Shown here: positions 2,400-62,096 of the stretch, piece by piece | Layout of the letters: each line of letters starts with the position of its first letter | How positions within the stretch are numbered: the first letter of the stretch is position 1 | Origin: Taeniopygia guttata | Lineage: Eukaryota | Reading direction: 5' to 3' | DNA: 64,000 nt | Assembly: GCF_048771995.1 (NCBI RefSeq) | Contig: NC_133041.1 | Location: 4,599,324 to 4,663,323 of the forward strand | Notes under the pieces: generated by a model | The model's input: only the letters and a program-made list of their open reading frames with translations | What the model was told of the DNA's origin: nothing | Databases searched by the model: none | Translations under genes and position numbers: made by a program

Positions 2400-2602
2400 T
2401 CACTCCCTTTTCCCCTTCTCCCCCCTCCACCTGCGCAGGTTGAGCCCCAGCAGCGCCAGGTTAACCCCGTAGGTGCCGAGGCAGACCAGGCACAGGTCCC
2501 TGAGGCCGAAGAGCAGGACCCCCGCCAGCCACAGCGAGGCCAGCGCCGAGGCCACCGACGAGGCCACCAGGGCCACCGAGGCCACCCGGCCGCGCCGGAC
2601 AC
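2400..2602 (-). CDS. VKORC1: Vitamin K epoxide reductase complex subunit 1, exon 3 (terminal, includes stop)
   Basis: The minus-strand translation is GVRRGRVASVALVASSVASALASLWLAGVLLFGLRDLCLVCLGTYGVNLALLGLNLRRWRGEKGKRE*. It aligns to the VKORC1 C-terminal half (..[35 protein letters not shown]..) and includes the CxxC redox motif. The acceptor is ..ctgtggcag| at 2603-2604 (revcomp), and the phase (1 nt from exon 2) gives LLLG|V. Confidence 0.85.
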
Positions 2603-2639
2603 CTGCCACAGAGGTCACACCAGTTTGGCCCAGTTTGGC

Positions 2640-4600
2640 CCAGTTTGGTCCCAGTCTGTCCCCAGTTTGGCCTCAGTTTCCCCAGTTTGTTCCCAGTTTG
2701 TCCCAGTGTCCTCCTCAGTGTTCCCAGTTTGGTCCCAGTTCCTCCCCAGTTTGTCCCAGTTTCTCCCAGTGTCCTCCTCACCTTCCTCCACAGTTTGTCC
2801 CAGTTTCTCCCCAGTTTCTCCCAGTTTCTCTCCCAGTTTCCCCAGTTTGTCCCCAGTTTCCCCAGTTTGTCCCCAGTTTCCCCAGTTTGTCCCCAGTTTG
2901 TCCCCAGTTTGGCCCAGTTTGCCCCAGTTTGGCCCAGCCACAGCGAGGCCAGCGCCGAGGCCACCGACGAGGCCACCAGGGCCACCGAGGCCACCCGGCC
3001 GCGCCGGACACCTGCCAGAGAGGTCACACCGGTTTGGCCCAGTTTGGGCCCAGTCTGGCCCAGTTTGTCCCCGGTTTGGCCTTAATGTTCCCAGTCTGTC
3101 CCCAGTTTCTGCCCAGTTTGGCCTCAGTGTCCCCAGTTTGTCCCAGTGTCCTCCTCACCTTCCTCCCCAGTTTGTCCCAGTGTCCCCCAGTTTTTCTCAG
3201 TTTGTCCCAGTTTGTCCCCAGTCCCCTCCAATCCCCTCCCAGTCCCTCCCAGTCCCTCCCAGTTCCCTCCCAGTCCATCCCAGTATAACCCAGTCCCCCC
3301 AATCCCCCCAAAACCCCACCCAGTCCCTTCCAGTATAACTCAGTGCCCCCAAACCTCCTCCCAGTCTCTCCCAGTCCATCCCAGTAACCCCGAATTCCAT
3401 CCCAGTTCCCTGTAACCCCCTCCCAGTCCCTCCCAGTATAACCCAGTCCCCCCCAAACCCCCAAAAACCCCTCCCAGTCCCTCCCAGTCCCCTTTAACCC
3501 CCTCCCAGTCCATCCCAGTGCCCTTTAACCCTTTCCCAGTCCCTCCCAATCCCCCCAATCCACTCCCAGTCCTTCCCAGTCCCCTCCAATCCCATCCCAG
3601 TCTGTCCCAGTATAACCCAGTCCCCCCCAATCCCCTCCCAGTCCCCTTTAACCCCCTCCCAGTTCCCTCCCAGTCCCTCCCAATCCCTTTCCAGTCCATC
3701 CCAGTCCCTCCCAGTTCCCTCCCAGTCCCTCCCAACCCCCTCCCAGTCCCTCCCAGTCCATCCCAGTGCCTTTTAACCCTTTCCCAGTCCCCCCCAATCC
3801 CATCCCAGTCTGTCCCAGTATAACCCAGTCCCCCCCAATCCCCTCCCAGTGCCCTTTAACCCCCTCCCAGTTCATCCCAGTCCCTCCCAGTGCCCTTTAA
3901 CCCCCTCCCAGTTCCCTCCCAATCCCTTCCCAGTCCATCCCAGACCCCCCAATCCCTCCCAGTCCCCTCCCAGTCTATCCCAGTCCCCCCAAACTACCTC
4001 CCAGTCCCTCCCAGTGCCTTTTAACCCTTTCCCAGTTCCCTCCCAGTCCCTCCCAGTCCCCCCCAAACCCCCTCCCAGTCCCTCCCAGTGCCCTTTAACC
4101 CCCTCCCAGTCTCTCCCAGTGGCTCCCAGTCCCCCCCCAACACCCACCCAGTCCCTCCCAGTCCATCCCAGTGCCTTTTAACCCTTTCCCAGTTCCCTCC
4201 CAGTCCCCCCAATCCCCTCCCAGTCCCTCCCAATCCCTCCCAGTCCCCTCCCAGTCTATCCCAGTCCCTCCCAGTGCCCTTTAACCCCCTCCCAGCCCCT
4301 CCCAGTGGCTCCCAGTCCCCCCCAAACCCCCTCCCAGTGGCTCCCAGTGGCTCCCAGTATAACCCAGTCCCCCCCAACCCCCTCCCAGTCCCTCCCAGTC
4401 CCTCCCAGTGCCCCCCAAACCCCCTCCAAGTCCCTCCCAGTGGCTCCCAGTGACTCCCAGTCCCCCCCAAACCCCATCCCAGTCCCTCCCAGCCCCTCCC
4501 AGTCTATCCCAGTCCCCCCCAAACCCCATCCCAGTCCCTCCCAGCCCCTCCCAGTCCCTCCCAGTCCCCCCCAAACCCCCTCCCAGTGGCTCCCAGTACA
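2640..4600. repeat. Satellite (cccagtttg / ccctcccagt, ~9-10-bp unit) filling VKORC1 intron 2
   Basis: The periodicity is visible directly. Confidence 0.9.
2934..3041 (-). pseudogene. Partial duplicate (~105 bp, ~98% identical) of the VKORC1 exon 3 5' end plus its acceptor, lying inside intron 2
   Basis: Sequence 2936-3019 is identical to 2525-2608 (offset 411 bp), and the AG acceptor is retained (ctctctggcag|gtgtcc on the minus strand). Reading from this copy runs on into the cccagtttg satellite (ORF 2461-3027). Confidence 0.8.
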
Positions 4601-4622
4601 CCCCAGTGCCCGGGGTTGTTAC

Positions 4623-4732
4623 CCAGCAGCCCCTGCAGCAGGTAGAAGATCAGCCCGATGGCGCCATTGGGCACGTTCAGGGCGCTGGCCCCGCCCAGCA
4701 CCGGCTCCACCAGCCCCAGGCCACGCCCCCAC
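4623..4732 (-). CDS. VKORC1: VKORC1 exon 2 (110 nt)
   Basis: It encodes (R)WGRGLGLVEPVLGGASALNVPNGAIGLIFYLLQGLLG, matching VKORC1 [39 protein letters not shown]. The acceptor is ttttgcag|G and the donor G|GTAAC, and the 110-nt length is the same as human exon 2. Confidence 0.85.
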
Positions 4733-4849
4733 CTGCAAAAGGGGCGTGGCACCGCCGGGACACGCCCACAAATGGTTAGACACGCCCCCACGCCCATATA
4801 TGGTGTGTAACTGCGGATAAACCACGCTCCTTGTTTGTTGCTAAGCCAC

Positions 4850-5800
4850 GCCCACCACATTTACATATCCATAGATGGTCATGGCTGGGTTAAACCACAC
4901 CCCCTCAGCGAGATGCCACGCCTTCATATATGCAAATAGCCCATGCAAACATGGCCGCATGTGGAAATGAATGGAATAAACCACGCCTTCGTTTGCATAT
5001 ATGCAAATGACCCATGCAAATCATGCCTTCATGCCCATATATGGAATAAACCATGCCTCATGCCTATGTATGCAAATAAACCACACCTTCGCCCACCTAT
5101 GCAAATAACCCATGCAAACATGCCCATATATGGAAATAATAGACACAGACCACTCCTTCATGTGCATATATGCAAATAACCCATGCAAATCGCCTTCATG
5201 CCCATATATGCAAATAAACCACGCCTTTATGTCTATATATGCAAATAAACCATGCCTTCATGCCAATATATGCAAATAAACCATGCCCTCATGCCCATAT
5301 ATGCAAAAAATCCATGCAAATAACTCTTTTATGCCCATATCTGGAAATAAATTATGCAAACGATGTCCTCATGCCTATATATGCAAATAGCCCATTCAAA
5401 ACATGCATTCATATATGCAAATAAGTGACACAAACCACGCCTCCATGCCCATATATGCAAATAACCCATGCAAACAACTACTTCATGCCCATATATGCAA
5501 ATAAACCATGCCCTCATGCCCATATATGCAAATAACCTACACAAACCACCCCTGCATGCCCATATATGCAAATAACCCATGCAAACCATGCCTTCATGCA
5601 CATATATGTAAATAAACCATGCCCTCATGCCAATATATGCAAATAACCCATGCAAACCACCCCTGCATGCCATATATGCAAATAAACCATGCATTCATGC
5701 CCATACATGCAAATAACCCATGCAAACCACGCCTCCATGCTATATATGCAAATAAATCATGCAAACCACACCCCCATACCCATATATGGACACAGTATAT
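4850..5800. repeat. ~25-bp satellite (catgcccatatatgcaaataaaccatgcctt) in VKORC1 intron 1
   Basis: The periodicity is visible directly. Confidence 0.9.
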
Positions 5801-5939
5801 TTATTCATGCAATATAAATCTTTAATTAACATAAACCCCGCCCCTTATTTAAGCCACGCCTCTTCCCGTACTCCATACAAAGCCCCGCCCCTTTCTCCTC
5901 ACGGGCCCCGCCCACCACGCCCCCTAGCGAATCGCCCCG

Positions 5940-6130
5940 CCCCTCCACCACCATTGGCCGCCGCCTGACGCAAGCCCCGCCCACTCGCGTTTCCCTCACT
6001 ACCATTGGCCGCCGCCTCAGCAGGCCCCGCCCACTCAATTTTCCCGCCAACACCGCTGCCTAGCGGCCCGTCCTTCCCCTCCCCGCTATTGGCCGCCGCC
6101 TCACGCAAGCTCCGCCCACTCCCGTTCCCG
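5940..6130. promoter_or_regulatory. Three tandem modules of a CCAAT box plus GC box in VKORC1 intron 1
   Basis: The motif ccattggccgccgcc..(c)ccccgcccactc occurs three times (about 5953, 6004, 6087). Read on the VKORC1 sense strand each is a CCAAT box next to an Sp1-like GGGCGGGG site. Confidence 0.35.
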
Positions 6131-6174
6131 CCCGCCCCCTCCCGTTACTCCCGGGCCGTTCCCGGTGCTTTTAC

Positions 6175-6329
6175 CGGGAGGAAAACACCCGCGTGCAGGA
6201 CACCGAGGGCCCCAGGTCGCAGGCGGCTCGGTAGGACGGGTCCTTGGCCACCTCATGCTCCACATGCAGCGCGTACACCGACAGCGCCGCGCCCGCCACA
6301 CACAGCGCCGCCCGCAGCGCCGCCGCCAT
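6175..6329 (-). CDS. VKORC1: VKORC1 exon 1 coding part (ATG at 6327-6329)
   Basis: It encodes [52 protein letters not shown], matching VKORC1 ..[35 protein letters not shown]. The donor is CG|GTAAAAG, leaving R split across exons 1 and 2. The tracked ORF begins at an upstream in-frame GTG (6368), but the first ATG is at 6329. Confidence 0.8.
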
Positions 6330-6720
6330 CGTCCAACCCCGATTGGGCGTCGCCGCTGCCACTCCCACCTCCCCTGTCCTGTGATTGGCCGGCGCGATGA
6401 AATCCCGCCTTGTTTCCGGTTGGGGCGCGGGGGTTGTTGGGAGTTGTAGTCCCGCGGGAAGTAACAGCGCGGATGAAAAATGGCGGGAGCGCGGCCAAGA
6501 TGGCGGCGGGGAGCTGAGTGAGGGCTCGGGCTCGGCCCCGCCGCTCCGGAGCCCTCCCGGAGGCCTTTGGGGAAGGTCGGGGCTCGGTGAGTGAGGCCCG
6601 GAGGGGTCCCGGGGGTCGCGGGGGTCCCGGGGGTGGCGGGGACGGGAGGGAATGGGTGGGATGGGGGGGCGGTGACGTCACGGGGCAAGATGGCGGCGGC
6701 GGCGTGAGGGGAAGGGGGGG
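6330..6720. promoter_or_regulatory. CpG-island promoter upstream of VKORC1, possibly bidirectional with PAGR1
   Basis: It is CpG-dense and carries a reverse CCAAT box (gtgattggccgg ~6382), an ETS-like ttccgg, gggagttgtagtcccg (reverse complement ACTACAACTCCC, a ZNF143/SBS-type motif), a CRE palindrome tgacgtca (~6672), and two YY1-core motifs caagatggcggcgg (6496, 6686), each followed by a gtgag(t/g)g donor-like site. Confidence 0.6.
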
Positions 6721-6779
6721 GGGGGAGGGAAATGGTGGGAGAGGCCCTGAGGGAGAGAAATAAAGCGCCGGGATTGAAC

Positions 6780-9230
6780 TGGGATGGAACTGGGAATAAA
6801 CTGGGAAAGAGCTGGGATTAAACTGGGATGGAACTGGGATTAAACTGGGATGGAACTGGGATTAAACTGGGATGGAACTGGGAGCCCAAACTGGGAGCAC
6901 TGGGAACCCCTCATGGATCAAAATGGGAGCACTGGGATCAAACTGGGATTCTCCCATCCCAATGTGGTTTTTCCCCCTTTTATTGTGTTTTTCTTCTCCT
7001 TTTTCGCCCCTAAATCCCCAATTTTTTCCCAAATTCCCCAAACGTTTCCCAAATCCCCCCATTTTTCCTCATTTCCACCCATTTCTTCCCAATTTGTTCC
7101 CATTTTTCCCAATTTCCCCCCAATTTCCCCCTTTTTCACCAATTTTCTCCCATTTCCCAATTTCCTCTAATTTACCCCCATTTTTTCTTCCATGTTCCCT
7201 TATTTTCCCCTATTTTTTCTAATTTCCCCCCTATTTTTCCCTTTTCCCCCCATATTGTTCCCATTTCCTCCCATTTTGCTCAATTTACCCCATTTTTCTC
7301 CCATTTTCCCAAATTTTTCCCAATTTTTTCCCATTTTCCTTCATTTTCCCCCCTTTTCCCCATTTTCTCCCATATTTTCCTCAATTTACCCCAATTTTCC
7401 CCATTTTCTCCCATTTCCCTCCATTTTTCTCAATTTTTTCCCATTTATCACCATTTTTTCCCAATTCCCCCTATTTTCTCCAATTTCCCCCCATTTTTCT
7501 CAATTTTTTCCCATTTCCCCCAATTTTCCCCATTTATTCCCCATTTTTTCCCATTTCCCCCCATTTTTCCCCCCATTTTCCCAATTTCCCCCAATTTTCC
7601 CCATATATTCCCATTTTCCACATTTTTTCTCAATTTTTCTCATTCTTCCCTGTATTCTCCCCAATTCCCTCCATTTTTCCCCTTGTTTTCCCATTTTTCC
7701 CCATTTTTTCCATTTTTTCCAATTTACTCCCAATTTTCCCCATTTCCTCCCATTTCCCCCGAATTTTCCCTACTTTTCCCCCATATTATCCCAAATTTCC
7801 CCCATTTTTCCCCATTTTCTCCAATTTTTCCCCATTTATCCCAATTTTCCCCAATTACCCCAATTTGCCCCATTTTCCCCCGTTTTCTCCAATTTTTTTC
7901 CATTTTTTCCCCTTTTTCCAATTTTTTTCCTGATAAATTCCCATTTCCCCACATTTTTTTATCAATTTTTTCCTTTTTCTCTCATTTTTCCCATTTTTCC
8001 CATTTTACCCCATTTCCCCCCCATATTTTTCCCATTTCCCCCCATTTTTCCCAATTTCCTCCCATTTCCTCCCATTTTCCCCATTTTTTCCCATTTTTTT
8101 TCCATTTTTCTCAATTTTTCCCATTTTTTCCCCATATATTCCCAATTTTCTCAATTTTTCCCATTTTTTTCCCATTTTACCCCATATCTCCCCCATATTT
8201 TTCCCAATTCCCCCCCATTTTTCCCAATTTCCCCCCATTTTCCCCCATTTTTCCCAATTTCCCCCCATTTTCCCCCATTTTTCCCAATTTCCCCCCATTT
8301 TCCCCCATTTTTCCCAATTTCCCCCATTTTCCCCCATTCCCCCCCATATTTCCCCCCATCTCCCCTCCATTTTCCCCTTGTTTTCCCCCCACTTTTCCCG
8401 ATTTCCCCCCATTTTTCCCTATTTTCCCCCATTTTCCCCATATTTTCCCCATTTTCCCCCATTTTCCCCCATTTTTCCGCATTTCCCCACATATTTTTCC
8501 CTATTCCCCCCATATTTTTACCAATTTCCCCCCTTTTTCCCTATTTCCCCCCAATTTCCCAATTACCCCCATTTTCCCCATTTTTCGCAATTTCCCCCAT
8601 TTTTCTCCCCAAATATTCCCATTTTTACCCCAAATTTTCCCGTTGTTTCCCATTTTTACCCCATTTCCCCCCATTTTCCCCATTTCCCCACATAATTTTC
8701 CCAATTTCCCCCCATTTTTCTCCCCAAATATTCCCATTTTTTCCCATTTTTACCCCAAATTTTCCCATTTTTACCTCATTTCCCCCCATTTTTCCCAATT
8801 TTCCCCCATTTTCCCCCCATTTTTCTCCCCAAATATTCCCATTTTTTCCCATTTTTACCCCAAATTTTCCCGTTTTTTCCCATTTTTACCCCATTTCCCC
8901 CCCATATTTCCAATTTCCCCCCATTTTTCCCAATTTCCCCCCATTTCCCTCCAATTTCCCCCCATTTTTCCCGATTTCCCCCATTTTTCTCCCATTTTCC
9001 CCCATTTTCCCCCATTTTCCTCCATTTCCCCCCATATTTTTCTCAATTTTTCCCATTTCCCCCCATTTTTCCCAATTCCCCCCATTTTCCCAATTTCCCC
9101 CCATTTCCCCCCATTTTCCTCCCAAATATTCCCATTTTTTCCCATTTTTACCCCAAATATTCCCATTTTTCCCCATTTTTACCCCAAATTTTCCCATTTT
9201 CCCCGCATTTTCCCCCAATTTCCCCCCCAG
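6780..9230. repeat. A 22-bp satellite ctgggatggaactgggattaaa (6780-6960), then a ~20-bp pyrimidine-only satellite ccccattttcccaatttcc (6960-9230)
   Basis: The plus strand is almost free of G, so all three frames stay open (ORFs 7192-9714 and 7683-9692 are artefacts). Confidence 0.9.
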
Positions 9231-9627
9231 CCCCCCATGTCCGCCCCCCCCTCCCCCCTCCCCCCCCCCCTGCACACCCTCACCCTCACCCCTCCCCCCC
9301 CCCCCCCAAATCCCCCCAGGAACCCCCGGAACACCCCGACAAACCCCCGGAAAAAGCCCCAAAATCGCCGGAATTCGCCCCAAACCCGCCGGAGGAGGAG
9401 GAGTGGGGGGTGCCCTGGAGCGAGGAGGAGGAGGAGGAGCCCCCCGGGGGATGGACCCCCGAGCCCCCCGAGATCCGGCGCCTCTTCGAGGCCATCGCGC
9501 GCGCCGGGACCCTCCCGCTGCGGAGCGGCCCCCTGCCCCGCCGCCAGCCCACCCCGGAGCCCCCCAGCGACCCCGAGGACGGGGGGGACCCCGCCCAGAG
9601 CCCCCCCCAGCGGCCCCCCGAGATCAA
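9231..9627 (+). CDS. PAGR1: PAXIP1-associated glutamate-rich protein 1, first coding exon (5' boundary and start unresolved)
   Basis: Frame 2 encodes ..EEEEWGVPWSEEEEEEPPGGWTPEPPEIRRLFEAIARAGTLPLRSGPLPRRQPTPEPPSDPEDGGDPAQSPPQRPPEI(K), matching human PAGR1 ..[55 protein letters not shown]... The donor is AA|GTACAC at 9628. The candidate ATG at 9237 (preceded by the acceptor-like ttcccccccag) is in frame 0 and would join frame 2 if the C17 homopolymer at 9291-9307 were one base longer. Confidence 0.65.
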
Positions 9628-9689
9628 GTACACTTTGGGGCAAAAAATGGGCGTTTTGGGCAAAAAAAAAGGGGATTTTTAGGTGGTTT

Positions 9690-12600
9690 TAGGGGGGGTT
9701 TAGAGCGATTTTAGGGGGATTTTGGGGCCATTTTAGAGGCAAAGTTGAGGATTTTTTGAAGGTTTAGGGTGGATTTTGGGAAATTTAGGATGGATTTTGG
9801 GTGATTTAGGGTGGATTTTGGGGGATTTTGGGTGGATTTAGGGGGGATTTAGGATGGATTTTGGGGGATTTTGGCAGGTTTAGGATGGATTTAGGAAGGA
9901 TTTTGGGGGATTTAGGATGGATTTAGGATGGATTTTGGGGGATTTTGGATGGATTTTGGGCCATTTCAGACAGATTTTGGGAGATTTAGGATGGATTTGG
10001 GATGGATTTTAGGGGATTTAGGATGGATTTAGGACAGTTTAGGATGGATTTTGGGGGATTTTGGGTGGATTTTGGGTGGATTTAGGATGGATTTTGGATG
10101 GATTCTGGGGGATTTAGGATGGATTTAGGAAGGTTTAGGATGGATTTTGGGTGGATTTGGGAAGGTTTAGGATGGATTTGGGAAGGTTTAGGATGGATTT
10201 TGGGAGATTTCGGAAGGATTTCAGAAGGTTTAGATTGGATTTAGGATGGATTTCGGAAGGTTTGTGATGGATTTTGGAAGATTTAGGATGGATTTTGGGA
10301 GATTTCGGATGGATTTAGGATGGATTTCGGACGGATTTTGGGCCATTTCAGGTGGATTTTTGGCCATTTCAGGTGGATTTTGGGCCATTTCAGACAGATT
10401 TTGGCCCGTTTCGGGTGGATTTTAGGCCATTTTGGGTGGATTTTGGGCGGTTTCGGGTGGCGCCGGGACCCTCCCGCTGCGGAGCGGCCCCCTGCCCCGC
10501 CGCCAGCCCACCCCGGAGCCCCCCAGCGACCCCGAGGACGGGGGGGACCCCGCCCAGAGCCCCCCCCAGCGGCCCCCCGAGATCAAGTACACTTTGGGGG
10601 GAAAAATGGGGGTTTTGGGCAAAAAAACCGGGCGTTTTTAGGGGGTTTGGGGGCCATTTTAGGGGGATTTTGGGGCCATTTCAGAGGGAAAGTTGAGGGT
10701 TTTGGAAGGTTTAGGATGGATTTTGGGGCATTTAGGATGGATTTTGGGGGATTTAGGATGGATTTTGGGTGGATTTAGGGTGGATTTCCGATGGACTTTG
10801 GGGGATTTAGGATGGATTTTGGAACATTTAGGATGGAATTAGGCAGGTTTAGGATGGATTTTGGGGCATTTCGGATGGATTTAGGAAGGTTTAGGATGGA
10901 TTTTGGGTGGATTTTGGGGAATTTAGGATGGATTTAGGATGGATTTAAGCAGGTTTTGGATGGATTTTGGGGCATTTTGGATGGATTTAGGAAGGTTTAG
11001 GATGGATTTTGGGTGGATTTAGGAAGATTTAGGATGGCTTTGGGAAGGTTTAGGATGGATTTTGGGGCATTTCGGGTGAATTTTAGAAGGTTTAGGATGG
11101 ATTTAGGAAGATTTAGGATGGATTTAGGATGGATTTAGGAAGATTTAGGATGGATTTTGGGAGATTTAGAATGGATTTAGTGTGGATTTAGGATGGATTT
11201 TGGGCCATTTCGGGCAGATTTTGGGCCGTTTCGGGCGGCGCCGGGACCCTCCCGCTGCGCAGCGGCCCCCTGCCCCGCCGCCAGCCCACCCCGGAGCCCC
11301 CCAGCGACCCCGAGGACGGGGGGGACCCCGCCCAGAGCCCCCCGCAGCGGCCCCCCGAGATCAAGTACACTTTGGGGGGAAAAACGGGCGTTTTGGGCAA
11401 AAAAACCCGGCATTTCTACGTGGTTTGGGGGCCATTTTAGGGGGATTTTTGTGCCATTTCAAAGGGAAAGTTGAGGATTTTGGAAGGTTTAGGATGGATT
11501 TAGGATGGATTTAGGATGGATTTTGGGCCATTTCGGGTGAATTTTAGAAGGTTTAGGATGGATTTAGGAAGATTTAGGATGGATTTTGGGAGATTTAGGG
11601 TGGATTTAGGATGGATTTAGGATGGATTTTGGGCCATTTCGGGCGTATTTTGGCCCATTTCGGGCGGCGCCGGGACCCTCCCGCTGCGCAGCGGCCCCCT
11701 GCCCCGCCGCCAGCCCACCCCGGAGCCCCCCAGCGACCCCGAGGACGGGGGGGACCCCGCCCAGAGCCCCCCCCAGCGGCCCCCCGAGATCAAGTACACT
11801 TTGGGGCGAAAAACGGGCGTTTTGGGCAAAAAAACCGGGGATTTCTACGTGGTTTGGGGGCCATTTTAGGGGCATTTTGGGGGGATTTTGCGGCCATTTC
11901 AGAGGGAAAGTTGAGGGTTTTTGGAAGGTTTAGGATGGATTTTGGGGCATTTAGGATGGATTTAGGATGGATTTTGGGGGATTTAGACAGGTTTAGGATG
12001 GATTTTGGGAGATTTCAGGTGGATTTAGGATGGATTTTGGGAGATTTAGGGTGGATTTAGGATGGATTTAGGATGGATTTTGGGGTATTTAGGATGAATT
12101 TTGGAACATTTAGGATGGATTTTGGGGAATTTAGGAAGGATTTAGGCAGCTTTAGGATGGATTTTGGGGGATTTAGGATGGATTTAGTATGGATTTTTGG
12201 GGATTTTGGATGGATTTCGGAAGGTTTAGATTGGATTTAGGATGGATTTAGGAAGGTTTGGGATGGATTTAGGAAGATTTAGGATGGATTTTGGGGCATC
12301 TAGGATGAATGTGGGATGGATTTTGGGGGATTTAGGGTGGATTTGGGATGGATTTTGGGGGATTTAGGATGGATTAAGGATGGATTTGGAGCATTTAGGA
12401 AGGTTTCGGATGGATTTTGGGGCATTTAGGGTGGATTTAGGATGGATTTTTGGGGCATTTAGGATGGATTTGGGATGGATTTTGGGGGCTTTAGGATGGA
12501 TTTTGGGGGATTTAGGGTGGATTTAGGATGGATTTTGGGGCATTTAGGAAGGTTTCGGATGGATTTTGGGGGATTTAGGATGGATTTACAAAGTTTTAGG

Positions 12601-13080: not shown

Positions 13081-13100
13081 CAAACTTTGGGATTTTCCAG

Positions 13101-13183
13101 GCCCCCTCCCCCCACGGAATTCGATTTTGACGACGAGCCCCTCCCCCCCAGCCCCGCCCTGATCGACCGGCGCCGCGCCCCAG
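13101..13183 (+). CDS. PAGR1: PAGR1 exon (83 nt)
   Basis: The acceptor is ttttccag|G and the donor cag|GTACC. It encodes (K)[27 protein letters not shown](G), matching human PAGR1 [26 protein letters not shown], and the phases fit both the previous and the next exon. Confidence 0.85.
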
Positions 13184-13189
13184 GTACCA

Positions 13190-14170: not shown

Positions 14171-14181
14171 CCCCATTTCAG

Positions 14182-14336
14182 GCCCGCCCAGCCGGGGGCA
14201 GAAGCGCGAGGCGCGGCTGGACAAGGTCCTGTCGGACATGAAGCGCCACAAGCGGCTGGAGGAGCAGATCCTGCGCACCGGCCGGGACCTGTTCCCGCCC
14301 CAGGGCCAGCGCCCCTTCCCCCGCCACAAAAACTGA
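14182..14336 (+). CDS. PAGR1: PAGR1 terminal coding exon (stop TGA at 14334-14336)
   Basis: The acceptor is ccccatttcag|. It encodes (G)[50 protein letters not shown], a near-identical match to human PAGR1 [37 protein letters not shown]. Confidence 0.85.
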
Positions 14337-18436: not shown

Positions 18437-18549
18437 TCATTCGCTGTCGGAGTCGACGACGCCGCGGAGCCGCGACCAGTCCGGGGGGGGGAGGGGCGAC
18501 CTCGGCGGCGATTTTGGGGCCGTTTCGGCGTTTCTGCGGCGGGATCGCG
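18437..18549 (-). CDS. HIRIP3: HIRA-interacting protein 3, terminal coding exon (stop at 18437-18439)
   Basis: The minus-strand translation is (A)RSRRRNAETAPKSPPRSPLPPPDWSRLRGVVDSDSE*, matching the human HIRIP3 C-terminus ..RPRRRTAWNPLGEAAPPGELYRRTLDSDEERPRPAPPDWSHMRGIISSDGESN*. The acceptor is ttttttcccccag| (phase 1), which is compatible with the upstream exon. Confidence 0.65.
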
Positions 18550-18559
18550 CTGGGGGAAA

Positions 18560-19396: not shown

Positions 19397-19489
19397 CGGG
19401 TAAAATGTTGGAGGCGTCGAGGGCGGCGAGTTCGGCTCTTTCCTCGCGGCGGCGGCCGAGGCGGCGGCACCGGGCCAGGGACGGGGTGC
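19397..19489 (-). CDS. HIRIP3: HIRIP3 penultimate exon (3' end may extend: an alternative in-frame stop lies at 19317)
   Basis: The minus-strand translation is (G)TPSLARCRRLGRRREERAELAALDASNILP(G), matching human GTPSLGKCRALKEQREEAAEVASLDVANIISG. The acceptor is ctttttcag| and the donor G|GTAAAAAAA. Confidence 0.7.
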
Positions 19490-19499
19490 CTGAAAAAGC

Positions 19500-21206: not shown

Positions 21207-21351
21207 CTCTGAGGCCGAGCTCGCGCAGGGCGCCCCTCAGCGCCTCCAGCGCCTCGCGGCGGCTGCGGCACTTCCGGAACAGCCGCTTGTAGTTAGGGCG
21301 CCACCCAGCGGCGCGGAGGTATCGCTTCAGCCGCGCCACTTCCGGCGGGTC
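21207..21351 (-). CDS. HIRIP3: HIRIP3 exon encoding the conserved CHZ-adjacent region
   Basis: The minus-strand translation is DPPEVARLKRYLRAAGWRPNYKRLFRKCRSRREALEALRGALRELGLR(G), matching human MRLKRYIRACGAHRNYKKLLGSCCSHKERLSILRAELEALGMKG. The acceptor is ccccag| and the donor AGAG|GTGCCC. Confidence 0.75.
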
Positions 21352-21539
21352 CTGGGGGCGGGGCTCAGTCAGGGGCGGGGCTTGCGCAAACCACGCCCCC
21401 TCTGGGGATTTGGCGGGAAATTGGGGGTTTTGGCGGGAATGGGAAATTAAGGGGATTTTGGGGGATTTTGGCATAAATTTGTTCAAGTTTTGGGGTTTTG
21501 GGGTTTTGGAAAATGTGGGGAAGGTTTTGTGGGGAAAGT

Positions 21540-57514: not shown

Positions 57515-57640
57515 GCAGAGCTGTGGCAGCGCTGCCTGGGATGTATAGAGGAGCTCCTGGAGCTGCTCTTTGCCCACCCCGAGATCTTCGTGGGCGAAAA
57601 CGTCCTCGAGGAGTCCGAGAACCTCAGCAACCCCGAGCAG
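57515..57640 (+). CDS. EIF3C: EIF3C exon 13
   Basis: It encodes [42 protein letters not shown], matching human [42 protein letters not shown]. The acceptor is ttctatag| and the donor CAG|GTATGG. Confidence 0.85.
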
Positions 57641-58460: not shown

Positions 58461-58463
58461 CAG

Positions 58464-58557
58464 CCGTTCCGGGTGCGCGGCTGCGTCCTGACCCTGGTGG
58501 AGCGGATGGACGAGGAGTTCACCAAGATCATGCAGAACACCGACCCCCACTCCCAGG
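58464..58557 (+). CDS. EIF3C: EIF3C exon 14
   Basis: It encodes [31 protein letters not shown](E), matching human [32 protein letters not shown]. One partial upstream copy of the acceptor plus first ~45 nt lies at about 58284-58330. Confidence 0.9.
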
Positions 58558-59589: not shown

Positions 59590-61929
59590 GGTGTGCCCAG
59601 GTGTGTCCAGGTGTGACCTCAGTGTACCTGGAGCACCTGAAGGATCCAAACCCTGAACGGGGGCTCACCTGGAGCTCACCTGGCTGTGATTTCGATGGGA
59701 TTTTTGGGGTTTTTTTGGACTTTTTTGGGTTTTTTGGGGTTTCTTGGGGTTTTTTTGGCATTTTAATCCCTCACCTGCCCACAAGGTGTGCCCAAGTGTG
59801 CCCAGGTGTGCCCAGGTGAATCCTCAGAACTCCTGGAGCACCTGAAGGATCCAAATCCTGAGCTGGAGCTCACCTGGCTGGGATTTTGATGTGGTTTTTT
59901 GGGGGTTTTTTGGGTTTTTTGGTGTTTTTTGGGTTTTTAAAGTCTCACCTGCCCACCAGGTGTGCCCAGGTGTGACCTCAGTGTACCTGGAGCACCTGAA
60001 GGATCCAAACCCTGAACTGAGACTCACCTGGAGCTCACCTGGGGCTCACCTGGATGGATTTTGGAGGATTTTTGGGGTATTTTTGGGCTTTTTTGACATT
60101 TTAATCCCTCACCTGCCCACAAGGTGTGCCCACAAGGTGTGCCCAGGTGTGCCCAGGTGAATCCTCAGAACTCCTGGAGCACCTGAAGGAGCTGGAGCCT
60201 CACCTGGGGCTCACCTGGAGCTCACCTGGCTGGGGATTTTGGGGATTTTTTGGAGTATTTTGTGGGTTTTTTGGGTTTTTAGGTCTCACCTGCCCAACAG
60301 GTGTGCTCAGGTGAGTCCTCAGAACACCTGGAGCCTCACCTGGGGCTCACCTGGCTGGGTTTTTTGGGGATTTTTTGGGCTTTTTTTGGTTTTTTTGGTG
60401 TTTTTTTGGCATTTTAATCCCTCACCTGCCCACCAGGTGTGCCCAGCTGTGCCCAGGTGAGTCCTCAGAACACCTGGAGCACCTGAAGGAGGTGGAGCCT
60501 CACCTGGAGCTCACCTGGCTGGGATTTCGATGTGGTTTTTGGCTTTTTTTTTGTCCTTTTTTTGGTTTTTTTTTTGGTTTTTTTTCTTTTTTCGCTATTT
60601 GCCCCCTCACCTGCCCGCCAGGTAACCCAGGTGTGTCCTTTCAGAGTACGTGGAGCACCTGAAGGATCCAAACCCTGAACTGGGGCTCACCTGGCTGGGA
60701 TTTCAATGGGATTTTTGGGGTTTTTTTGGGTTTTTTGGTATTTTCAGCCTCACCTGCCCGCCAGGTGACCCCGCCAGGTAACCCAGGTGTGTCTTTGCAG
60801 AGTACGTGGAGCACCTGAAGGAGCCGGAGCCTCACCTGGAGCTCACCTGGCTGTAATTTTGATGTGGTTTTTGGCGCTTTTTTGTCCTTTTTTTGGATTT
60901 TTTTTTTGCATTTTCCGCTATTTCCCCCTCACCTGCCCGCCAGGTAACCCAGGTGTGCCTTCACAGAGTACGTGGAGCACCTGAAGGAGCTGGAGCCTCA
61001 CCTGGGGCTCATCTGAGGCTCATCTGGAGCTCACCTGGCTGGGATTTCAATGTGATTTTTTGGGGTATTTTTGGGGATTTTTGGTGTTTTTTGGGTTTTG
61101 AAGGTCTCACCCCTCAGCCAGGTGTGTCCAGGTGAGTCCTCAGAACAATTGGAGAACCTGAAGGAGCCGGAGCCTCACCTGGCTGGGATTTTGGGGATTT
61201 CTTGGTGTATTTTTGGCCTTTTTTTGTCCTTTTTTTGGGTTTTTTTGGGGTTTTTTTTGCCACTTCCCCCCTCACCTGCCTGCCAGGTGTGCTCAGGTGT
61301 GCCCAGGTGTGACCAGGTGTGACTTCAGTGTACCTGGAGCACCTGAAGGATCCAAACCCTGAACTGAGACTCACCTGGAGCTCACCTGGAGCTCACCTGG
61401 AGCTCACCTGGGGCTCACCTGGGGCTCACCTGGCTACGATTTTGGGGTTTTTTGGGCTTTTTTAATCATTTTTTTGGATTTTTTTCCTTTTTTCACTACT
61501 TCCACCCTCACCTGCCCGCCAGGTAACCCACCAGGTAACCCAGGTGTGTCTTTCAGAGTACGTGGAGCACCTGAAGGATCCAAACCCTGAACTGGGGCTC
61601 ACCTGGAGCTCACCTGGCTGCGATTTTGGGGATTTCTTGGTGTATTTTTGGCTTTTTTTTGTCCTTTTTTTGGGTTTTTTTTCCTTTTTTCGCTATTTCC
61701 TCCCTCACCTGCCCGCCAGGTGAGCTCAGCTGTGCCCAGGTGTGTCCAGGTGAGTCCTGAGAACACCTGGAGCACCTGAAGGATCCAAACCCTGAACTGG
61801 AGCTCACCTCGCTATGATTTCTATGTGATTTTTCGGGGTTTTTTAGGTTTTTTGGGCGTTTTTTTGGCATTTTCACCTTTACCTGCCCGCCAGGTGACCC
61901 CGCCAGGTAACCCAGGTGTCTCTTCCCAG
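59590..61929 (+). other. About 12 upstream partial copies of the EIF3C exon 15 acceptor plus first ~22 nt, in a ~150-190-bp tandem array
   Basis: The motif (t)ttcag|agtacgtggagcacctgaag and the variants cag|aacacctggagcacctgaag and cag|tgtacctggagcacctgaag occur at about 59609, 59828, 59972, 60166, 60466, 60644, 60800, 60965, 61140, 61325, 61548 and 61757. Each is followed by gatccaaaccctgaactgg..ctcacctgg rather than the exon body. Confidence 0.85.
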
Positions 61930-62096
61930 AGTACGTGGAGCACCTGAAGGACGAGGCGCGGGTGTGCGGCATCATCGGGCGGCTGCAGCGCTACCTGCAG
62001 GCCAAGGGCAGCCCCGAGGAGCTGTGCCGGGTGTACCTGCTGCGCGTCCTCCACACCTACTACAAGTTCGACTACGCCGCCGCCCGCCGCCGCCAG
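61930..62096 (+). CDS. EIF3C: EIF3C exon 15
   Basis: It encodes (E)[55 protein letters not shown], matching human [55 protein letters not shown]. Confidence 0.9.

What the first reader, a model, noticed from the sequence alone, without database searches (positions are those of the whole stretch)
9229..9410. PAGR1 start codon out of frame across a C17 homopolymer
The only ATG upstream of the conserved PAGR1 exon-1 body (9237, MSAPPSPLPPP.., preceded by a strong acceptor-like ttcccccccag) is in frame 0, while the conserved body (from about 9308) is in frame 2. A run of 17 C (9291-9307) lies between them, and one extra C would join the frames. This is either a homopolymer length error in the assembly, a real frameshifted allele, or the true start lies elsewhere.
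Basis: inference. Interest (0 to 1): 0.5.

Follow-up and report, generated by a model that had tools for sequence, protein, structure and literature searches.

The report
One-base poly-C miscount in PAGR1
The zebra finch PAGR1 gene looks broken because a run of 14 C's sits between its conserved start codon and the rest of the protein, but comparison with other songbirds suggests the run is probably miscounted by one base in the assembly, so this is most likely a technical artefact and not new biology.

Summary
The window is a zebra finch dot-chromosome region: its VKORC1 protein is identical to Taeniopygia guttata XP_041575461.1.

**What holds up.** The PAGR1 identification, the ATG at 9237 (frame 0), the body in frame 2, and "one extra C joins them" are all correct.

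**What needs correcting.**
- The run is C14 (9294-9307), not C17; 9291-9293 is CCT.
- The "acceptor-like" site at 9229-9230 is a real splice acceptor. A related bird's cDNA joins a 5'UTR exon (about 6509-6586) to 9231.

**Where the frame breaks.** Both sides of the run match songbird PAGR1 N-termini, each in its own frame. The break therefore lies inside the run.
- Four other passerines have C6 at this spot, so the finch run grew by 8 bases. Growth by 9 (C15, three extra prolines) would be in frame.
- Two other passerine assemblies have the same conserved ATG out of frame, at different poly-C runs of this exon.

**Verdict.** The most likely cause is a one-base length error in the assembly. A real slipped allele cannot be excluded without reads. 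A different start is unlikely. Interest is low.

The parts
6509..6586 (+). PAGR1 non-coding 5'UTR exon. Its 5' end is approximate. It lies in the promoter region shared head-to-head with VKORC1. The donor G|GTGAGT is at 6586|6587.
   Evidence: Logan cDNA L006 bases 30-109 align to 6509-6586. The cDNA leaves the genome exactly at a GTGAGT donor that is conserved in six passerine sequences (window plus five loci).
6587..9230 (+). Intron 1, inside the 5'UTR. Its 3' part (at least 8700-9228) is CT-rich tandem repeat. It ends in the polypyrimidine-AG at 9220-9230.
   Evidence: The cDNA junction is ...GGGGGTCG|CCCCACCATGTCC. cDNA base 111 onward aligns from window 9231. CAGCCCCCCATG is identical in the window and four ortholog loci.
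9231..9627 (+). First coding exon (transcript exon 2). The donor GT is at 9628-9629.
   Evidence: cDNA alignment, tblastn with PAGR1, and the splice-phase check that gives a continuous ORF.
9237..9293 (+). Conserved start codon and N-terminal peptide MSAPPSPLPPPLHTLTLTP, in frame 0.
   Evidence: It matches Motacilla MSTPRPSPPSPLPPSLHSLSLTPPP, Agelaius MSTPHPSPPSPLPPSLHTLSLTPPP and Zonotrichia. The LH(S/T)L(S/T)L(T) motif corresponds to (V)TSGLQSLAV of other birds.
9294..9307 (+). C14 homopolymer (poly-proline codons). This is where the frame switches from 0 to 2. C15 or C12 would be in frame.
   Evidence: Run length. The orthologous run between ACCCCT and AAATCC is C6 in Agelaius, Motacilla, Camarhynchus and Onychostruthus. 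It is the longest G/C run in the window.
9308..9627 (+). Rest of the exon, in frame 2: KSPQEPPEHPDKPPEKAPKSPEFAPNPPEEEEWGVPW... It includes the start of the PAXIP1_C domain.
   Evidence: It matches Agelaius ...KSPQKPQTSPEKAPKSPDFPPNPPE.
13101..13183 (+). Coding exon 2 (PPPPTEFDFDDEPLPPSPALIDRRRAPG).
   Evidence: tblastn, sequence and splice sites, cDNA alignment.
14182..14336 (+). Coding exon 3 up to the stop codon TGA at 14334-14336.
   Evidence: tblastn, sequence, cDNA alignment to 14300, stop codon orthologous to other passerines.

Best explanation
This is the orthologous PAGR1 (PA1) gene of the zebra finch. Its real start codon is the ATG at 9237, in the second exon of the transcript. In the finch lineage a short proline-coding C run (C6 in other passerines) grew into a long pure homopolymer. 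In the living bird the run is most likely C15, giving three extra prolines and an intact 209-aa protein. The assembly consensus reports C14, one base short, which puts the start codon out of frame with the rest of the gene. Long G/C homopolymers in dot-chromosome euchromatin are where long-read consensus is least reliable.

Shown here: gene identity, exon structure, the conserved start, the position of the frame switch, and the lineage-specific expansion.

Inferred: that the missing base is a consensus error rather than a real allele.
For: - Species: VKORC1 from the window is identical over 155 aa to T. guttata XP_041575461.1 / XP_072792559.1.
- Gene: PAXIP1_C at E = 1e-34. The best hits are passerine PAGR1. 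The VKORC1-PAGR1 neighbourhood is the same as in five passerine loci.
- Both flanks of the run match ortholog N-termini in their own frames. The switch is therefore confined to 9294-9307.
- Orthologs have C6 at this spot, so the window has +8 nt, and +9 would be in frame.
- Indels between the ATG and CTGCAC are multiples of 3: -12 nt in the window and -15 nt in Ammospiza, both against Motacilla. This is as expected for coding sequence.
- An Illumina-derived cDNA from a related bird starts at this ATG, in frame.
- The rest of the gene is intact, with good splice sites. dN/dS against Motacilla is 0.40.
- The as-is product from 9237 is 150 aa with no Pfam domain.
- Three of five passerine assemblies have the same conserved ATG out of frame, each at a different poly-C run. 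Camarhynchus has C6 versus C8 at offset 20. Ammospiza breaks somewhere in its C9/C7/C9/C9 cluster. A short-read contig of Onychostruthus ends just upstream of the run. Independent null alleles of this conserved gene in three reference birds are unlikely; a sequencing problem in this C-rich exon is the simpler explanation.
- Literature: residual errors of HiFi assemblies concentrate in homopolymers >10 bp (PMC12212083). Zebra finch dot-chromosome euchromatin is rich in minisatellites and non-B DNA motifs that HiFi has difficulty sequencing through (10.1101/2025.10.14.682431).
Against: - No reads, second haplotype or same-species transcript could be examined. No zebra finch or Lonchura PAGR1 protein or transcript fragment is in the protein collection, and the look-ups failed.
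- In well-validated human assemblies about 78% of coding frameshifts are true variants (PMC12212083), so an assembly frameshift is not automatically an error.
- The finch copy has a shortened C-terminal tail and a somewhat higher dN/dS against the cDNA species (0.59). Relaxed constraint in this lineage is therefore not excluded.
- The three copies of the exon's 3' end in the intron align to it without gaps, so short runs (C8 or less) appear well called in this assembly.
Confidence: 0.8

Rival explanations
1. The C14 is a real slipped allele. A 14-15 nt mononucleotide run mutates easily by replication slippage. The assembled haplotype could carry a genuine -1 allele, probably heterozygous, that encodes a 150-aa product lacking the PAXIP1_C domain.
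For: - The run is a lineage-specific pure homopolymer of a length prone to slippage.
- The rest of the gene is intact, as expected for a very recent mutation.
- Many assembly frameshifts in humans are real (PMC12212083).
- Dot-chromosome sequences are unusually unstable (PMC12954441).
Against: - PAGR1 is conserved across vertebrates. From my own knowledge, not checked here, loss of Pagr1a in mouse is embryonic lethal.
- The same kind of break in two other species' assemblies at other runs points to a technical cause.
- The as-is product has no recognisable domain.
Confidence: 0.12
2. The true start lies elsewhere. With a real, fixed C14, translation would begin at ATG 6397 in an extended first exon. 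It would read through the 6586|9231 junction into frame 2, giving a 273-aa protein with a new N-terminus.
For: - In the sequence as it stands, the ORF from 6397 is open to the donor and joins the body in frame.
- NCBI's Camarhynchus model P0002 uses the same upstream reading frame.
Against: - Two cDNAs from two bird species begin downstream of the position equivalent to 6397.
- ATG 6397 lies in the VKORC1/PAGR1 bidirectional promoter, 68 nt from the VKORC1 start codon.
- The upstream peptide resembles no PAGR1 from other vertebrates.
- This reading discards the conserved MS..LH.L.LT N-terminus, which is still intact in frame 0.
- The in-frame junction has a 1-in-3 chance of arising by accident.
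- The other upstream ATGs (6473, 6480, 6500) reach TGA within about 15 codons.
- Exon 2 has no near-cognate start codon in frame 2 (read).
Confidence: 0.04
3. Recoding. The C14 is real, and the frame is restored in part of the product by RNA polymerase slippage on the C run or by +1/-2 ribosomal frameshifting on the proline codons.
For: Only that long homopolymers can cause transcriptional slippage in other systems (general knowledge). The run lies exactly at the frame junction.
Against: - Orthologs are in frame with a short C6 run, so no recoding site is conserved.
- The breaks in Camarhynchus and Ammospiza are at other runs, and Camarhynchus needs a shift of a different size.
- Nothing suggests a stimulatory element, though I did not search for one.
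Confidence: 0.02

Closest known systems
Homopolymer-length consensus errors in long-read genome assemblies (false frameshifts; NCBI 'LOW QUALITY PROTEIN' or 'partial' models)
   Same: - A single-base discrepancy inside a run longer than 10 nt.
- Both flanks keep their coding conservation.
- The region is GC-rich and repeat-rich, where read coverage and accuracy drop (PMC12212083; 10.1101/2025.10.14.682431).
- Related assemblies show the same kind of break, and their annotations work round it.
   Different: - The error was not demonstrated from reads.
- The run itself is a real evolutionary expansion (C6 to about C15), not a pure artefact.
Coding mononucleotide microsatellites that frameshift by replication slippage (for example the A10 run of TGFBR2 in mismatch-repair-deficient tumours; from general knowledge)
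   Same: A long pure mononucleotide run inside a coding exon, where a +/-1 slip destroys the downstream reading frame.
   Different: Those are documented somatic or germline mutations. Here a germline allele is only the minority explanation.
PAGR1 / PA1 (PAXIP1-associated glutamate-rich protein 1), Pfam PAXIP1_C
   Same: - Full-length PAXIP1_C match.
- Up to 83% identity to passerine PAGR1.
- Conserved synteny with VKORC1.
   Different: - The N-terminus is proline-rich rather than glutamate-rich, as in other passerines.
- The C-terminal tail is 8 codons shorter than in other passerines and lacks KRPPGLFLR.RKY.
Sequence/exon stuttering on avian dot chromosomes (PMC12954441)
   Same: - The locus shows intronic tandem repeats.
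- Partial exon copies lie next to their source exons in PAGR1, EIF3C and VKORC1.
- This fits the described instability of GC-rich dot-chromosome genes.
   Different: Stuttering concerns copies of tens to hundreds of bases. The finding concerns a mononucleotide run inside an exon.

Membership tests
PAGR1 / PA1 ortholog | PAXIP1_C domain (PF15364) above Pfam's gathering score | tested here: met
   120 bits against a cut-off of 27, E = 1e-34, covering 1-132 of 132 profile positions.
PAGR1 / PA1 ortholog | Best matches are PAGR1 of related species, and the gene neighbourhood is conserved | tested here: met
   The top hits are passerine PAGR1. VKORC1 lies head-to-head upstream in the window and in five passerine loci.
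PAGR1 / PA1 ortholog | Uninterrupted ORF from the conserved start codon | tested here: not met
   ATG 9237 is 167 nt (mod 3 = 2) from the WGVPW codon. The ORF is restored only by adding 1 C.
Assembly homopolymer-length artefact | The frame break maps inside a long homopolymer, with coding conservation intact on both sides | tested here: met
   The switch is confined to C14 at 9294-9307. Frame 0 before the run and frame 2 after it both match orthologs.
Assembly homopolymer-length artefact | Raw reads or an independent assembly of the same individual disagree with the consensus length | not testable with these tools
   No reads are available. The zebra finch and Lonchura loci could not be retrieved, and no same-species protein fragments were found.
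Assembly homopolymer-length artefact | The same type of break recurs in independent assemblies of relatives | tested here: met
   Camarhynchus (mod 3 = 1) and Ammospiza (mod 3 = 2) break at other poly-C runs. Agelaius and Motacilla are in frame.
Programmed frameshift / transcriptional slippage site | The slippery run and the two-frame arrangement are conserved in orthologs | tested here: not met
   Orthologs have C6 and a single frame.
Alternative upstream start (ATG 6397) | The start codon lies within the transcript | tested here: inconclusive
   Two cDNAs from other bird species start downstream of the equivalent position. No zebra finch transcript data are available.
Alternative upstream start (ATG 6397) | The upstream reading frame is conserved as coding sequence in orthologs | tested here: not met
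   In Agelaius and Motacilla the canonical ATG is in frame with the body. The upstream frame, which enters exon 2 in frame 2 relative to the ATG, would therefore be out of frame there. In Camarhynchus the body is in f1, so the upstream frame would not join it through the canonical acceptor either.

The most novel reading that the evidence does not exclude
The C14 is real and fixed in zebra finch. Functional PAGR1 is then made from a new start codon (ATG 6397) in an extended first exon, so the ancestral N-terminus has been replaced through a frameshift. Alternatively, the frame is restored by slippage on the C14 run.
Probability: 0.05. Interest if true: 0.5.

Novelty: not a real feature. Interest (0 to 1): 0.15.

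Why it matters
The practical value is for annotation. As it stands, the sequence would make PAGR1 look like a pseudogene, a partial gene, or a gene with a false N-terminus in the zebra finch reference.

- The same problem has already distorted NCBI models in Camarhynchus (P0002, with a chimeric N-terminus) and Ammospiza (P0004, "partial").
- Apparent gene decay on avian dot chromosomes needs read-level checks at poly-C/G runs before it is counted as gene loss.
- If the C14 were real, it would be a null or re-started allele of a conserved chromatin-regulator subunit. That would be of moderate interest.

Tried and rejected
- **Same-species evidence:** I looked up zebra finch VKORC1 (P0121) and Lonchura VKORC1 (P0122) to fetch independent assemblies of the locus. 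Neither is on record.
- **Transcript fragments:** I searched the protein collection with the N-terminal 79 aa alone, hoping to expose zebra finch transcript fragments across the run. Only two distant partial proteins came back.
- **Exact look-up:** the repaired 209-aa protein is not in the collection.
- **Ortholog look-ups:** Zonotrichia P0003 and Catharus P0014 are not on record.
- **Passer montanus locus L004:** it lacks the start motif, so it was uninformative for the run.
- **Other exons:** tblastn with EIF3C and VKORC1 sequences written from memory found each exon as a single-frame match. This shows no general indel problem, but those exons hold no long runs, so the test is weak.
- **Chance test:** C14 alone is not significant.
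- **Non-AUG start:** I found no near-cognate start codon in frame 2 of exon 2.
- **Better C-terminal exon:** a search elsewhere in the window found none. The tail is simply shortened.
- **Automatic alignment:** the MAFFT DNA alignment of the N-terminal region misplaces gaps in the poly-C sequence. I used anchor-based comparison instead.

Full report
**1. What is in the sequence**

On the + strand the only ATG between 8500 and 9450 is at 9237, in frame 0. It is preceded by ttccccccccag and followed by a very C-rich stretch with runs of C8, C6, C11, C14 and C6. The longest run is C14 at 9294-9307.

Frame 2 from 9308 reads KSPQEPPEHPDKPPEKAPKSPEFAPNPPEEEEWGVPWSEEEEEEPPGGWTPEPPEIRRLFEAIARAGTLPLR... 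The ATG frame reads MSAPPSPLPPPLHTLTLTPPPPPP and then runs into unrelated arginine-rich sequence.

A C14 run by itself is not unusual for this composition. The expected number is 1.57, and 55 of 100 shuffles hold at least one. It is nevertheless the longest G/C homopolymer in the window.

**2. The gene**

- tblastn and splice-site reading give three coding exons...9627 (donor GT 9628), 13101-13183, and 14182-14336 (TGA).
- With one C added after 9307 the exons form a 209-aa ORF. It matches Pfam PAXIP1_C over the whole profile (E = 1e-34).
- Its best hits are passerine PAGR1, with Motacilla alba at 83%.
- VKORC1 lies head-to-head upstream (exons 6175-6329, 4623-4732 and 2400-2602, minus strand), as in five other passerine loci.
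- The window's VKORC1 protein is identical to Taeniopygia guttata XP_041575461.1 / XP_072792559.1, on a 5.74-Mb record. The window is therefore a zebra finch dot-chromosome region.

**3. The start codon and the "acceptor"**

A Logan RNA-seq contig from a related bird (L006, complete CDS) aligns to the window in four blocks: 6509-6586, 9231-9560, 13097-13184 and 14179-14300.
- Its 5'UTR leaves the genome at a G|GTGAGT donor (6586|6587) that is conserved in six passerine sequences.
- It re-enters exactly after the AG at 9229-9230.
- The "acceptor-like" site is therefore a real acceptor of a 2.6-kb 5'UTR intron, and the ATG exon is exon 2.
- CAGCCCCCCATGTCC is identical in the window, Agelaius, Motacilla, Camarhynchus and Ammospiza.

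The frame-0 peptide matches the N-termini of other passerine PAGR1 proteins:
- Motacilla: MSTPRPSPPSPLPPSLHSLSLTPPPKSP...
- Agelaius: MSTPHPSPPSPLPPSLHTLSLTPPPKSPPKSPQKPQTSPEKAPKSPDFPPNPPE...
- Zonotrichia: MSTPRPSPPSLHSLSLTPPPP...

Its LH(S/T)L(S/T)L(T) core corresponds to the (V)TSGLQSLAV motif of non-passerine birds. The frame-2 sequence after the run matches the next part of the same orthologs. Length differences between the ATG and CTGCAC are multiples of three. ATG 9237 is therefore the conserved start.

**4. Where the frame breaks**

Frame 0 is homologous up to ACC CCT (9288-9293), and frame 2 is homologous from AAA TCC (9308). The switch is therefore confined to the C14 run.

The same anchor reads ACCCCT-C6-AAATCC in Agelaius, Motacilla, Camarhynchus and Onychostruthus. 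The finch run is 8 nt longer. A 9-nt expansion (C15, three extra prolines) would keep the frame.

**5. Recurrence in other assemblies**

The distance from the conserved ATG to the WGVPW codon, modulo 3, is 0 in Agelaius and Motacilla, 2 in the window, 1 in Camarhynchus parvulus and 2 in Ammospiza caudacuta.
- In Camarhynchus the break is at a C6 run that is C8 in Agelaius and Motacilla. NCBI's model (P0002) avoids it with an N-terminus read from the 5'UTR exon.
- In Ammospiza the break lies in a cluster of C9/C7/C9/C9 runs, and the NCBI protein (P0004) is "partial".
- The short-read contig of Onychostruthus ends just upstream of the run.

In each case both sides remain conserved as protein. 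Three independent null alleles of this gene in three reference individuals are improbable. Trouble sequencing this C-rich exon is the simpler explanation.

The literature agrees. Residual errors in HiFi-based assemblies concentrate in homopolymers >10 bp (PMC12212083). The euchromatin of zebra finch dot chromosomes is rich in minisatellites and non-B DNA motifs that HiFi has difficulty sequencing through (10.1101/2025.10.14.682431).

**6. State of the rest of the gene**

There are no other frame breaks or stop codons, and the splice sites are canonical. dN/dS is 0.40 against Motacilla; Motacilla against the cDNA species gives 0.35, and the window against the cDNA species gives 0.59.

The C-terminal tail is 8 codons shorter than in other passerines, but it stays in frame overall and ends at the orthologous stop codon.

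Taken as it stands, ATG 9237 would give a 150-aa product that stops in coding exon 2 and has no Pfam domain.

**7. Rivals**

(a) A real slipped allele. This is possible, because a 14-15-nt run is mutable. It cannot be excluded without reads. In validated human assemblies most coding frameshifts are real (PMC12212083). I give it about 0.12.

(b) Start elsewhere. In the as-is sequence ATG 6397 opens a frame that reads through 6586|9231 into the body, giving 273 aa. Several points count against it:
- It lies upstream of the 5' ends of two cDNAs from other species.
- It lies inside the VKORC1/PAGR1 promoter.
- It encodes nothing PAGR1-like.
- It would not be in frame in the species whose ATG is in frame.
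- The other upstream ATGs stop within about 15 codons.
- I saw no near-cognate start in frame 2 of exon 2.

I give this about 0.04.

(c) Recoding by slippage. No conserved site exists (C6 in relatives). I give it about 0.02.

**8. What could not be done**

No reads were available. No second zebra finch or Lonchura assembly could be retrieved. No same-species transcript-derived protein was found. The choice between a consensus error and a real allele therefore rests on comparative inference.

**9. Verdict**

The start at 9237 is the true conserved start.

The frame break is most likely (about 0.8) a one-base undercount of a lineage-specific poly-C (poly-proline) expansion. The finding is ordinary and useful mainly as an annotation warning.

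Noticed in passing
window 10460-10599, 11238-11377, 11667-11806: The last 140 bp of the PAGR1 ATG exon is copied three times (98.6-100% identical, no gaps) inside the following intron, among GGATTT-type tandem repeats. This fits the 'exon stuttering' described for chicken dot chromosomes (PMC12954441). NCBI models of Camarhynchus (P0002) and Passerculus (P0011) include such a copy as extra protein sequence.
   Followed up: partly
window 14286 to about 17750: There are thirteen tandem copies of the last ~50 nt of the PAGR1 coding sequence plus the start of the 3'UTR ([16 protein letters not shown]). Only the first copy is attached to the rest of the exon. Agelaius also has about eight ~850-bp repeats that include this exon.
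   Followed up: partly
window 14286-14336: The zebra finch PAGR1 C-terminal tail is 8 codons shorter than in other passerines ([13 protein letters not shown] versus PPEGPQSPKRPPGLFLRTRKY*). It has lost a motif present in the other bird PAGR1 sequences examined here. The frame is kept overall and the stop codon is orthologous.
   Followed up: partly
L003 (Camarhynchus parvulus) 6549-6745; L005 (Ammospiza caudacuta) 3915-4115: Both assemblies have the conserved PAGR1 ATG out of frame with the body, at other poly-C runs. The NCBI protein models are distorted as a result (P0002 has a chimeric N-terminus; P0004 is 'partial').
   Followed up: yes
window 38.3-64 kb, + strand: EIF3C starts at about 38.4 kb (MSRFFTTGSDSESE) and runs off the end of the window. 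Partial copies of its exons sit in adjacent introns: 56668 and 56835 (copies of exon 57518-57640), 58269 (copy of exon 58461-58556), and many 'EHLKD' copies at 59.5-61.7 kb upstream of exon 61929-62075.
   Followed up: partly
window 2400-6329, - strand: VKORC1 has three exons (6175-6329, 4623-4732, 2400-2602). Its protein is identical to zebra finch XP_041575461.1. A partial copy of the last exon lies at about 2781-3023.
   Followed up: partly
window 6497, 6687; 30913, 31068, 31130, 31192: The motif AAGATGGCGGC (YY1-like, from memory) occurs at the PAGR1 5'UTR exon, where it is conserved in the passerine loci examined. It occurs again 190 bp downstream, and four more times around 31 kb, which may mark another promoter inside a repeat.
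   Followed up: no
window 18437-18553, 19399-19490, 21211-21353 (minus-strand gene): The Logan cDNA L006 continues past the PAGR1 stop into three spliced blocks that encode, on the opposite strand, the C-terminus of a convergent gene (...KRYLRAAGGRPNYKRLLGKC...DWSRLRGVVSSDSE*). From memory this looks like HIRIP3, but Pfam gave no match.
   Followed up: partly
window 6397-6586: An ORF on the + strand, open from ATG 6397 through the 5'UTR exon, happens to join the PAGR1 body frame across the 6586|9231 junction in the as-is sequence. This could tempt gene predictors into a false 273-aa model.
   Followed up: yes
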